In this document: positions 59,428 to 60,882 of the stretch, in pieces
Position numbering within the stretch: position 1 is the first letter of the stretch
Layout: the number at the start of each line of letters is the position of its first letter
NCBI RefSeq assembly: GCF_013315695.1
Contig: NZ_CP054353.1
Origin: Escherichia coli
Lineage (GTDB): Bacteria; Pseudomonadota; Gammaproteobacteria; Enterobacterales; Enterobacteriaceae
Strand: one strand, 5' to 3'
Length of the DNA stretch: 64,000 nucleotides
The notes under the pieces: model-generated
Database searches by the model: none
What the model saw: the letters and a program-made list of their open reading frames with translations, nothing else
Told to the model about the DNA's origin: nothing
Program-made: the position numbers and the translations under genes

Positions 59428-60882
59428 ATGTTAGTTAGTAAAAGTAATGGTCATAACGTTAATACAGTTTTGGGTAGTGGAAGTTGTAATGAAAACAATT
59501 CTTCCAACCCCATGGAGCTACTAGCTTATAGTATTATAAATTTAATTTGTAAGGAAGCTGCCTCAGGGATGTATCGCGGTGCTCTTGAAACTTTACAAAA
59601 AATAATGTCTGAATGTATATATCAAGAAGGCAACGCCTTTGTCATTATGGGAGCTGGAGAACAATTAAAACGTATTAAATATGATGTTGATGAAAATAAC
59701 TTAAAAGTATTCAACGTACACTTTGATAATAATGAAGAGCTAGTTACTGATGGTGAGCCTGACGTAGTATGTTTAAGCAAGCAGGAGTGGGAAAATCTTC
59801 TCATTAAATTAAAACCGGAGATTAAAGAAAATGTGTTTTCTGAAAATAACAAATTATCGAGAGAAAATAATGTTGATCAGTATGTTCAATCCGCTAAAAG
59901 AAATGAACAGGCCCTTTTCGATAATATAATAAAAAGTGATTTTCATGTTGCTTTACTTCAGCCAGGTAGAACACGTAGTGTTATTTCAGAAACGCCGCCA
60001 AATGACTGTATGGAATCACATAATTTATATGAAAACCACACAGATAAGGTTTCAACTGTAACTAAAAATTCTCAGCAAGTTAAAGGTCACTATGGAGATA
60101 AGTTGAAAGAAATGCAGTTGTTCCTCAACCAGATGAGCAATGCACTTCAACAGGATTCATCTTTGTTAGAGTCAAAGGAACACACCATAGATATTCAAGA
60201 AAAAACGAATAAGTTTGTGCAGCATTTTCAGCGGGTATTATTTGATAAAAATGGAAGGTCATCAGAGTTTCTACTTAATTTTTATGAGTGTTGCTATAAG
60301 TTTTTACCAAGAGCGCAGCCTCAAGATAAAATCGATAGCTATAATTCAGCACTGCAAGCTTTTTCCATCTTTTGTTCATCTACGTTGACACATAATAATG
60401 TAGGGTTTAATTTCAAATTATTTCCAGAAGTCAAGCTGTCTGGAGGAGATCTTGAAACGGTATTCAAATACAAAAATGGCAATTTTGTCTGGGAGATAGC
60501 CAGAATTAAAATTACTCTCCCAAAAGAAGAGGGTGGTTTATACAATTTAGGTGGATTGGACTTTAAGGGGTGCTTCTTTTCTGGACAGAACTTCAGTAAC
60601 TATGATATTAAATATGTGAACTGGGGGACGTCATTGTTTGATGTTGATACTCCGTGTATTTTTAATACGCCTGCTAACAATGAGAGTTATGAAAAATCAT
60701 TAAAGCCTGTGAGCGAAAACGGTTTAAATGGAGTCTTATCTGATCGTAATAAAAAAATAAAAATGATCACGGGCGTGGCACCATTCGATGGTATTTCATC
60801 TATGGATGATGACTTTGATGATAGTTCCTCTGAGGATGAGCCCGTTGAGAATAGTCCTGTTGTGACTAGTCCCCTTGTATAA
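59428..60882 (+). CDS. Hypothetical 484-aa protein (AT-rich; acidic Ser/Asp/Glu-rich C-terminal tail; short pentapeptide-repeat-like stretch)
   Basis: ORF with upstream GAGGA RBS; no recognised family; sits downstream of the tRNA-Ile gene in the AT-rich islet. Confidence 0.55.
   Translation: MLVSKSNGHNVNTVLGSGSCNENNSSNPMELLAYSIINLICKEAASGMYRGALETLQKIMSECIYQEGNAFVIMGAGEQLKRIKYDVDENNLKVFNVHFDNNEELVTDGEPDVVCLSKQEWENLLIKLKPEIKENVFSENNKLSRENNVDQYVQSAKRNEQALFDNIIKSDFHVALLQPGRTRSVISETPPNDCMESHNLYENHTDKVSTVTKNSQQVKGHYGDKLKEMQLFLNQMSNALQQDSSLLESKEHTIDIQEKTNKFVQHFQRVLFDKNGRSSEFLLNFYECCYKFLPRAQPQDKIDSYNSALQAFSIFCSSTLTHNNVGFNFKLFPEVKLSGGDLETVFKYKNGNFVWEIARIKITLPKEEGGLYNLGGLDFKGCFFSGQNFSNYDIKYVNWGTSLFDVDTPCIFNTPANNESYEKSLKPVSENGLNGVLSDRNKKIKMITGVAPFDGISSMDDDFDDSSSEDEPVENSPVVTSPLV

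What the first reader, a model, noticed from the sequence alone, without database searches (positions are those of the whole stretch)
59428..60882. Unrecognised 484-aa protein with acidic Ser-rich tail and pentapeptide-repeat-like segment
The translation matches no family I can recognise. The C-terminus is strongly acidic and serine-rich (DDDFDDSSSEDEPVENSPVV), and residues around LDFKGCFFSGQNFSNYDIKYVNWGTSLFD show a 5-residue periodicity with [N/D][F/I/W] reminiscent of pentapeptide repeats, as seen in some secreted effectors such as Salmonella PipB2. There is no signal peptide. By position it may be an intact version of the K-12 ypjC pseudogene, but that is a guess from synteny.
Basis: inference. 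Interest (0 to 1): 0.5.

Follow-up and report, generated by a model that had tools for sequence, protein, structure and literature searches.

The report
Intact E. coli orphan gene ypjCB
This open reading frame is the unbroken form of ypjCB, an already catalogued gene of unknown function found only in E. coli (the laboratory strain K-12 carries it split in two), and it looks like a dispensable, slowly decaying piece of acquired DNA, not a new kind of secreted effector.

Summary
The 484-codon ORF at 59428-60882 (+) is real and intact. It is not unrecognised. It matches Pfam DUF5507 + DUF5508 and NCBIfam NF050179 "YpjCB family protein" (951 bits, cut-off 650), and identical DNA in E. coli AF3 is annotated ypjCB.

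The acidic Ser-rich tail, the lack of a signal peptide and seven 5-residue units (residues 371-405) are all present. The pentads fall short of a pentapeptide-repeat protein: 7 units rather than at least 8, Pfam 12.7 bits against a cut-off of 20.2, and no confident beta-helix. There is no similarity to EspX1.

An exhaustive search of 1.84 billion representative proteins found only YpjCB itself, so it is an E. coli-only orphan. No fold match was found.

The gene sits on an AT-rich islet (ygaQ-ileY-ypjCB-pin remnant-ypjA). It is missing from about 41% of complete genomes and broken by at least 5 independent lesions in 11 of 17 copies inspected. Its haplotypes are deeply mosaic and dN/dS is 0.5-0.8.

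Best reading: a known, dispensable, H-NS/Hha-targeted accessory gene in decay, whose function remains untested. Low to moderate interest.

The parts
59428..60882 (+). ypjCB coding sequence, 484 codons plus stop; intact allele
   Evidence: WP_001571800.1, 'YpjCB family protein' in E. coli AF3, 100% identical DNA
59416..59420 (+). GAGGA ribosome-binding site, 8 nt upstream of the ATG
   Evidence: read from the sequence
58932..58960 (+). Promoter-like TTATCA-N17-TTTAAT. The same hexamers are reported for the K-12 ypjC sigma-70 promoter, with an H-NS site, in the ileY-ypjC spacer
   Evidence: motif found in the window; PMC3946193 via (K-12 genomic SELEX). Function in this strain is inferred.
59428..59511 (+). 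Residues 1-28: polar Ser/Asn-rich N-terminus (6 S, 7 N, one acidic residue), predicted disordered, hypervariable between alleles
59428..59907 (+). Residues 1-160: DUF5507 region (equivalent to K-12 YpjC); two helices 28-62 followed by beta strands 80-106; low model confidence
59908..59910 (+). Codon 161 (Gln here). It is a stop codon in K-12 and 5 other sampled strains and is the lesion that splits ypjC from ypjB
60051..60155 (+). 35-codon in-frame indel polymorphism (residues ~209-243). Present here; absent from the intact 449-aa alleles of EDL933, Sakai and O145 and from K-12
60127..60879 (+). Residues 234-484: DUF5508 region (equivalent to K-12 YpjB)
60193..60516 (+). Residues 256-363: best-predicted core, with three helices (256-266, 278-295, 298-321) and a three-stranded antiparallel sheet (329-363). 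In the domain-only model 10-residue-block mean pLDDT runs 68-91 over this stretch, mostly 78-91.
   Evidence: purifying selection on residues 284-412 (omega 0.16-0.57)
60538..60642 (+). Residues 371-405: seven pentad units xx[N/D][L/F/I/W]x; nearly invariant in 24 alleles; sub-threshold for a pentapeptide repeat
60784..60879 (+). Residues 453-484: acidic Ser-rich tail (FDGISSMDDDFDDSSSEDEPVENSPVVTSPLV), predicted disordered, variable in length between alleles
58596..58671 (+). ileY tRNA-Ile(CAU), which reads AUA; context marker of the islet
55786..58038 (-). ygaQ-like 750-aa alpha-amylase-like ORF, AT-rich, belonging to the same islet
61243..61410 (+). Remnant of a pin-type serine recombinase (pinH) immediately downstream
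61818..64000 (+). 5' part of ypjA/ehaD autotransporter adhesin (runs off the window end); the last gene of the islet

Best explanation
Identity (shown): the ORF is the intact allele of ypjCB, an E. coli-restricted orphan gene made of DUF5507 + DUF5508. K-12 carries it as two fragments, ypjC and ypjB. It belongs to a small AT-rich islet (ygaQ - ileY - ypjCB - pin remnant - ypjA) between the gab operon and the ssrA integration hot spot.

What it is and does (inferred): a non-enzymatic, soluble, acidic 54.7-kDa protein that stays in the cytoplasm unless exported by a non-Sec route. It has a disordered polar N-terminus, a small alpha/beta N-domain, a long fast-evolving linker, one constrained C-terminal module (three helices, a three-stranded sheet and seven pentad units) that most likely acts as a protein-binding surface, and a disordered acidic tail.

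In K-12 its region is bound by Hha and flagged as an H-NS site, the pattern expected of acquired AT-rich DNA under H-NS/Hha control; no silencing of this gene was measured. The gene is dispensable and is being lost piecemeal across the species, by deletion and by repeated nonsense or frameshift lesions. The open frame in this strain is therefore a surviving functional copy of an accessory gene under weak selection. It is not a housekeeping gene, and it is not a demonstrated secreted effector.
For: Family and synteny. AT-rich islet: GC 0.35 (GC3 0.30) against 0.51 for the window and 0.55-0.61 in the gab operon.

E. coli-only: all of the best 120 of 426 hits in 5.8 billion proteins are Escherichia or Shigella. 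phmmer against 1.84 billion representatives returns only YpjCB and its fragments, plus one marginal repeat-protein hit. The one GTDB species-representative hit is K-12 contamination. There is nothing in phages, and the plasmid hits are mislabelled chromosomes or an IS1-captured fragment.

Dispensability: the gene region is present in 3181 of 5426 complete genomes, and deletions of several extents occur. 11 of 17 inspected copies are broken, at codon 41, 116, 154 or 161 or by a frameshift at nt 473, which makes at least 5 independent events.

Weak but real constraint: whole-gene dN/dS is 0.52-0.78, against 0.04-0.07 for glaH and lhgD. The core at residues 284-412 gives 0.16-0.57. dN<dS is significant for the whole gene in several pairs.

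No enzyme signature, signal peptide or transmembrane segment. Regulation in K-12: a sigma-70 promoter and an H-NS site between ileY and ypjC (PMC3946193), and Hha binding with a 9-fold RNA change (PMC2408971). The promoter motif is conserved in the window.
Against: No experiment addresses the intact protein. The only phenotypes come from K-12, which makes at most the 160-aa N-terminal fragment: a delta-ypjC biofilm is colonised more by EAEC 55989, and a ypjC mutant of 55989 could not be obtained (PMC3646849). 'Binding scaffold' is inferred from the absence of catalytic signatures and from the domain layout; nothing positive supports it. The structure models are weak (mean pLDDT 40 for the full length and 70 for the C-domain). 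Haplotype blocks with dS 0.2-0.29, two to three times the flanking genes, and a minimum of 32 recombination events (Rm) among 15 haplotypes go beyond what simple relaxed constraint predicts. They could reflect balancing or diversifying selection on an interaction with an outside partner.
Confidence: 0.6

Rival explanations
1. Translocated effector (a sharpened form of the first reader's idea): YpjCB is an orphan substrate of a type III secretion system (LEE or the degenerate ETT2). It would have an N-terminal disordered secretion signal, a short pentapeptide-like beta-solenoid as a host-binding module, and an acidic Ser-rich tail acting as a host-kinase or adaptor motif.
For: The N-terminal 28 residues are polar and Ser/Asn-rich with one acidic residue. 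The gene has low GC and lies on an islet next to a tRNA. There are seven conserved pentads. Frequent pseudogenes and presence/absence polymorphism are what established knowledge describes for non-LEE effector families (my knowledge, not tested). Intact alleles occur in the LEE-positive strains EDL933, Sakai and O145 RM9873, while phylogroup-A K-12-like strains carry the stop. The recognised effector-like protein EspX1 is itself only sub-threshold for Pfam Pentapeptide_4 (18.2 bits against 38), so a weak Pfam score does not exclude this class.
Against: There is no sequence similarity to EspX1 (E=0.87) or to any other protein in 1.84 billion representatives. There is no confident beta-helix and no pentapeptide-repeat structure among the listed fold matches. 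The gene is not in a lambdoid-prophage effector locus. Intact alleles also occur in strains with no evidence of a type III system, and at least one large-genome strain (CD45) carries a broken copy. No secretion data exist.
Confidence: 0.15
2. Conflict-system protein: a phage-defence, anti-defence or competitor-interaction factor left by an old mobile element at the ssrA/ileY hot spot and kept variable by frequency-dependent selection.
For: Deep mosaic haplotypes: Rm of at least 32, and blocks 13-20% divergent in nucleotides within one species. Block dS is 2-3 times that of flanking genes. The gene shows presence/absence polymorphism. It is adjacent to a pin recombinase remnant and to the prophage integration site. 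The family has its own PHROG, phrog_30093.
Against: No PADLOC model matches it or its neighbours. No homologue exists in 50,697 phage records. No partner gene is co-inherited with it, since the neighbours are an amylase-like gene, a tRNA and an adhesin. No block shows dN significantly greater than dS. It carries no nuclease, ATPase or other effector domain.
Confidence: 0.12
3. Functionless relic: the frame is still open here by historical accident, and the gene is effectively a pseudogene-in-waiting with no current role.
For: 11 of 17 copies are broken by at least 5 independent lesions, including the allele closest to this one (97% nucleotide identity, a frameshift in KN13-4). dN/dS is about 1 across residues 101-283. 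The gene is absent from about 41% of genomes.
Against: The core at residues 284-412 and the segment 51-100 show dN well below dS, with omega 0.1-0.57. Residues 371-413 are nearly invariant across 24 alleles whose overall mean column identity is 88%. Intact alleles of three length classes (449, 484 and 491-492 aa) persist in many lineages. A ribosome-binding site and a promoter motif are retained.
Confidence: 0.13

Closest known systems
E. coli K-12 YpjC (b2650) + YpjB (b2649); RefSeq 'YpjCB family protein' (NCBIfam NF050179; Pfam DUF5507 PF17612 + DUF5508 PF17621)
   Same: Same gene at the same position between ileY and the pinH remnant. The match is full-length to NF050179 (951 bits). The protein is about 80% identical to the K-12 reading frame.
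   Different: The window allele is uninterrupted (Gln161 rather than a stop) and retains a 35-codon segment that K-12 and O157 alleles lack. It belongs to a rare haplotype: only 5 of 3183 records are at least 99% identical in DNA, and 2902 are 90-95% identical. The family has no assigned function.
Pentapeptide-repeat proteins, including the type III effectors PipB2 (Salmonella) and EspX/EspY (E. coli)
   Same: Seven consecutive units with [N/D] followed by a large hydrophobic residue at 5-residue spacing. The gene is low-GC and islet-borne. It is similar in size to EspX1 (473 aa).
   Different: The family definition requires at least 8 contiguous repeats (PMC8145042), which is not met. The Pfam score is below threshold. 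There is no sequence similarity to EspX1, and no confident quadrilateral beta-helix or structural match. PipB2 itself was not compared, because no sequence was at hand.
71-residue Ig-like tandem repeats of a 2688-aa metagenomic protein (P0161; Pfam Ig-like_POM152-type hit)
   Same: The short motif GG-x-Y-x-x-x-G-x-D-x-x-GC, preceded by beta strands, aligns YpjCB residues 333-382 to many repeats at 20-32% identity. This raises the possibility that the first two 'pentads' are instead the last hairpin of a small beta-sandwich.
   Different: Profile-profile comparison gives 1.1% probability over 16 columns. The library E-value of 4e-4 is inflated by summing over non-independent repeats. This is treated as a motif resemblance and not as homology.

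Membership tests
YpjCB family (NCBIfam NF050179) | Full-length match above the curated cut-off (650 bits) | tested here: met
   951.4 bits, residues 1-484 against profile positions 1-465
YpjCB family (NCBIfam NF050179) | DUF5507 N-terminal and DUF5508 C-terminal regions in one polypeptide | tested here: met
   PF17612 1e-82 (residues 1-160) and PF17621 1.7e-143 (residues 234-484)
YpjCB family (NCBIfam NF050179) | Orthologous position: gab operon - ygaQ - ileY - ypjCB - pinH remnant - ypjA | tested here: met
   Same gene order in AF3, K-12, EDL933, Sakai, M11957 and KN13-4
Pentapeptide-repeat protein superfamily | [quoted passage not shown] | tested here: not met
   Seven contiguous units at residues 371-405, two of them lacking the D/N
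Pentapeptide-repeat protein superfamily | Match to a Pfam pentapeptide model at the gathering threshold | tested here: not met
   No hit for the whole protein at E<=1. The segment alone gives PF00805 at 12.7 bits against 20.2, E 0.098
Pentapeptide-repeat protein superfamily | Right-handed quadrilateral beta-helix fold | tested here: inconclusive
Type III secretion effectors (EspX/PipB2-like) | Sequence homology to a known effector family | tested here: not met
   BLASTP against Sakai EspX1 gives E 0.87. No non-YpjCB relative was found in 1.84 billion representatives. PipB2 was not compared directly
Type III secretion effectors (EspX/PipB2-like) | N-terminal secretion signal and T3SS-dependent secretion or translocation | not testable with these tools
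   Composition of residues 1-28 is compatible (6 S, 7 N, 1 acidic), but no predictor or experiment was available and no literature was found
Known anti-phage defence systems (PADLOC-DB 2.0) | Match to a defence-protein model in the gene or its neighbours | tested here: not met
   0 families for YpjCB, the ygaQ-like ORF and the 74-aa ORF

The most novel reading that the evidence does not exclude
YpjCB is a species-restricted, de novo-like or extremely fast-evolving protein that E. coli uses against an outside partner (host cell, phage or competitor). It could, for example, be an unrecognised secretion substrate whose invariant 371-413 pentad block is the binding surface. Its deep, recombining haplotype blocks and repeated losses would then be the footprint of frequency-dependent selection and not of decay.
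Probability: 0.15. Interest if true: 0.55.

Novelty: already known. Interest (0 to 1): 0.25.

Why it matters
As a finding it mostly closes a question. The ORF is a catalogued family member (YpjCB), and the K-12 'genes' ypjC and ypjB are two halves of it. Two things have residual value. First, YpjCB is a clean example of an E. coli-only orphan: no relative was found in 1.84 billion representative proteins and no fold match was found. Second, its population genetics are unusual for a chromosomal gene, with block-wise 13-20% nucleotide divergence within the species, a minimum of 32 recombination events (Rm), and many independent knock-outs. If an intact allele were shown to have a phenotype, the locus would be a useful case for how young or orphan genes are maintained and lost. 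K-12 would then be the wrong strain in which to study it.

Tried and rejected
(1) Pentapeptide-repeat or PipB2/EspX-like effector. Rejected as a family assignment but kept as a low-probability functional analogy.

(2) Remote homology. phmmer against PDB sequences gave nothing. PADLOC gave nothing. PHROGs returned only its own family of unknown function. The 5.8-billion-protein search and the exhaustive search of 1.84 billion representatives returned only YpjCB.

(3) The one outsider hit, P0161 with its Ig-like repeats. Followed up with BLASTP and hhalign and rejected as homology.

(5) Other species. The GTDB species-representative scan returned one locus, which turned out to be K-12 contamination of a Planococcaceae MAG.

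(6) Plasmid 'homologues'. These are mislabelled chromosomes and one IS1-captured K-12-type fragment.

(8) Positive selection. No block has dN significantly greater than dS.

Full report
OBSERVATION. The ORF listing and translation confirm a 484-codon ORF at 59428-60882 on the + strand. It starts at ATG and has no internal stop. A GAGGA ribosome-binding site lies 8 nt upstream. The protein is 54.7 kDa, pI 5.0 and hydrophilic (GRAVY -0.51). It has no segment hydrophobic enough for a signal peptide or membrane span (maximum Kyte-Doolittle over 19 residues is 1.01). The last 32 residues carry 10 D/E, no K/R and 7 Ser. Residues 371-405 can be written as seven consecutive 5-residue units: LYNLG GLDFK GCFFS GQNFS NYDIK YVNWG TSLFD. 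Each has a large hydrophobic residue at position 4, and five of the seven have N/D at position 3. A run this long arose in 3 of 5000 shuffles of the protein. All descriptive parts of the finding are therefore correct.

IDENTITY. The protein is not unrecognised. Pfam finds DUF5507 (residues 1-160, 1e-82) and DUF5508 (residues 234-484, 1.7e-143). NCBIfam NF050179 'YpjCB family protein' matches end to end at 951 bits against a cut-off of 650. The DNA is 100% identical to E. coli AF3, a blood isolate from the UK, where the gene is annotated ypjCB, WP_001571800.1.

The surrounding order is gabP-gabT-gabD-lhgD-glaH, a 750-aa amylase-like ORF (the intact form of K-12 ygaQ), tRNA ileY, ypjCB, a pin-recombinase remnant, and ypjA. 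K-12 MG1655 has the same order, with ypjC (160 aa) and ypjB (263 aa) in place of the single gene. Aligning the two shows one continuous frame in K-12, interrupted only by a stop at codon 161 (AKRNE*NLF), where the window has Gln. K-12 also has a 35-codon in-frame deletion that intact O157 alleles share.

NO RELATIVES OUTSIDE E. COLI. The word-indexed search of 5.8 billion proteins gave 426 hits, and the best 120 are all Escherichia or Shigella, at 77-100% identity. The exhaustive phmmer run over 1.84 billion 50%-identity representatives gave 43 hits. Forty-two are YpjCB or its fragments. That leaves one full-length cluster and no distant family.

The remaining hit, P0161, is a 2688-aa protein made of about 35 tandem 71-residue Ig-like repeats. 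These repeats share the short motif GGxYxxxGxDxxGC with YpjCB residues 333-382. A profile-profile comparison gives 1.1% probability over 16 columns, so I do not count it as homology.

A scan of one genome for each of 100,044 species found a single locus. It is a 'Planococcaceae' MAG contig that is 100% identical to K-12 over 2799 bp, which means contamination. Phage records hold nothing. The plasmid hits are mislabelled chromosomes plus one IS1-flanked K-12-type fragment on an IncHI2A plasmid. PDB sequences, PADLOC and PHROGs add nothing beyond a PHROG of unknown function.

STRUCTURE. With only intraspecific alleles as an alignment, the full-length AlphaFold model is poor (mean pLDDT 40). It suggests a disordered N-terminus (residues 1-27), helices at 28-62, strands at 80-106, a long disordered stretch (about 130-220) and a disordered tail (from 414).

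A model of residues 245-418 reaches mean pLDDT 70 and pTM 0.71. It has confident helices at 256-266, 278-295 and 298-321 and a three-stranded antiparallel sheet at 329-363. The pentad segment is not confident there (pLDDT 37-63). In the full-length model the same segment had pLDDT 54-77, with one- or two-residue strands at roughly 5-residue spacing. Whether it forms a beta-helix coil is therefore undecided.

PENTAPEPTIDE / EFFECTOR IDEA. The superfamily is defined by at least 8 contiguous repeats forming a quadrilateral beta-helix (PMC8145042, seen). YpjCB has seven. Pfam pentapeptide models do not hit the whole protein. They give 12.7 bits against a 20.2 cut-off when the segment is scanned alone. 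As a positive control and direct comparison I fetched EspX1 of O157 Sakai (ECs_0025). It is itself only sub-threshold for Pentapeptide_4 (18.2 bits against 38), and it shows no similarity to YpjCB (best BLASTP E 0.87). Membership in the pentapeptide or EspX families is therefore not supported. A functional analogy cannot be excluded, because secretion cannot be tested here.

POPULATION PICTURE. The gene region is present in 3181 of 5426 complete E. coli genomes. The whole glaH-to-ypjA stretch is present in 2861. Other genomes retain only glaH plus about 200 bp, or carry IS-associated partial deletions.

I inspected 17 copies. Six are intact: the window/AF3, EDL933, ECOCN22, WP5-S18-ESBL-07, CB7453 and O145 RM9873. 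Eleven are broken:
- A stop at codon 161 in K-12 and five other strains.
- A stop at codon 116 in two strains.
- A 1-nt deletion at nt 473 in KN13-4, the closest relative of the window allele.
- A stop at codon 41 in one strain.
- A stop at codon 154 plus a frameshift in one strain.
This amounts to at least five independent events.

ypjCB is a local divergence peak. Strains are 88-92% identical in nucleotides here, against 96-98.5% for lhgD, glaH and ygaQ. Nei-Gojobori estimates give whole-gene dN/dS of 0.52-0.78, compared with 0.04-0.07 for glaH and lhgD, 0.13 for ygaQ and 0.25-0.34 for ypjA. By segment the values are about 1 for residues 101-283, 0.16-0.57 for residues 284-412, and 0.1-0.9 for residues 51-100. 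No segment has dN significantly above dS.

The alleles are mosaics. Fifteen haplotypes carry 181 informative sites, and the four-gamete minimum is 32 recombination events. The window allele is 0-3% from O145 RM9873 over nt 150-600 but 13-16% from it over nt 676-900, where it is identical to five other strains. Block-level dS reaches 0.2-0.29, two to three times the flanking genes. The pattern is weak purifying selection on two cores, near-neutral evolution of the linker and termini, old haplotype blocks, and frequent loss.

REGULATION AND LITERATURE (K-12 only). Genomic SELEX places a sigma-70 promoter (TTATCA-18-TTTAAT) and an H-NS site between ileY and ypjC (PMC3946193). The same hexamers are present in the window at 58932-58960. 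Hha, the H-NS partner, binds the ypjC region, and ypjC RNA changes 9-fold on Hha induction (PMC2408971). ypjC is induced about 2-fold in a K-12 biofilm challenged with EAEC 55989. A K-12 delta-ypjC biofilm is colonised more. A ypjC mutant of 55989 could not be obtained (PMC3646849). These data concern, at most, the 160-aa fragment.

INTERPRETATION. Shown: the identity (ypjCB), intactness here, restriction to E. coli, the AT-rich islet context, dispensability with repeated inactivation, mosaic alleles, absence of enzyme, signal-peptide or membrane signatures, and failure of the pentapeptide and effector membership tests.

Inferred: that the product is a non-enzymatic binding protein whose constrained module is residues about 256-413, that the gene is under H-NS/Hha control in this strain as the K-12 binding data suggest, and that the gene is a weakly selected accessory gene in decay. 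I put about 0.6 on this package. The identity part is near certain, and the functional part is perhaps one in three.

The rivals are a type III-translocated effector (0.15), a phage or competitor conflict factor (0.12) and a functionless relic whose frame is open by accident (0.13). The deep haplotype blocks are the one feature that simple decay does not explain well, and they keep the first two rivals alive.

NOVELTY AND SCORE. The gene and family are already catalogued, so the finding is 'already known' in kind, with function unknown. Interest is 0.25. A specialist would not be surprised by an intact ypjCB. The orphan status and the unusual population genetics are worth a note, and they make a simple experimental follow-up possible in strains other than K-12.

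Noticed in passing
window 58596-58671 (+): The ileY tRNA-Ile(CAU) allele differs from other strains at 2-4 of 76 positions. Two changes fall in the acceptor stem and are not compensatory: G1-C72 becomes G1-U72, and C4-G69 becomes an A4.G69 mismatch. The tRNA gene is only 93-97% identical between strains, which is unusual for a tRNA and may indicate a decaying duplicate of ileX.
   Followed up: partly
window 55786-60882: The AUA-reading tRNA ileY sits between two AUA-rich genes. AUA accounts for 8 of 24 Ile codons in ypjCB and 20 of 65 in the ygaQ-like ORF, against 0 of 29 in gabT. 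The islet may carry its own rare-codon tRNA.
   Followed up: partly
window 55786-58038 (-): The 750-aa alpha-amylase-like ORF (the K-12 ygaQ pseudogene) is intact here and in several other strains, but broken in K-12 and EDL933. It has only weak Pfam matches (Alpha-amylase_C 2.3e-6; catalytic domain sub-threshold), GC of 0.35-0.42 and dN/dS of 0.13.
   Followed up: partly
window 61243-61410 (+): A pin-type serine recombinase remnant (pinH) is conserved as the same truncated remnant in every strain inspected, so the truncation predates the diversification of ypjCB alleles.
   Followed up: no
window 60051-60155 (+): A 35-codon in-frame indel polymorphism removes a predicted helix (residues ~209-243). 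Both the long (484 aa) and short (449 aa) forms occur as intact genes, so the segment is dispensable for whatever the protein does.
   Followed up: partly
L018 (DEQI01000374.1, 'Planococcaceae bacterium UBA3370' MAG): This 2799-bp contig is 100% identical to E. coli K-12 MG1655 across ypjC-ypjB, so it is contamination of a public MAG by K-12 DNA.
   Followed up: yes
L021 (NZ_MN732922.1, IncHI2A plasmid, locus 4001-4357): An unannotated K-12-type ypjCB fragment (residues ~169-322) lies between IS1 copies on a 245-kb conjugative plasmid. It is a piece of chromosome captured by IS1 and not a paralogue.
   Followed up: yes
PLSDB records NZ_CP134663.1, NZ_CP141089.1, NZ_OL790696.1: Three 'plasmid' records of 4.8-4.9 Mb are E. 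coli chromosomes mislabelled in the plasmid collection.
   Followed up: no
window 58684-58908 (+): RefSeq annotates a 74-aa hypothetical protein (WP_000284116.1) directly after ileY. It overlaps a terminator-like hairpin on the opposite strand (58864-58885) and has no family match, so it is possibly a spurious call.
   Followed up: no
P0161 (2688-aa metagenomic protein): About 35 tandem 71-residue Ig-like repeats ending in GxYxVTGTDxNGC. It is the only non-YpjCB protein retrieved from 1.84 billion representatives, and the match rests on a short motif only.
   Followed up: yes
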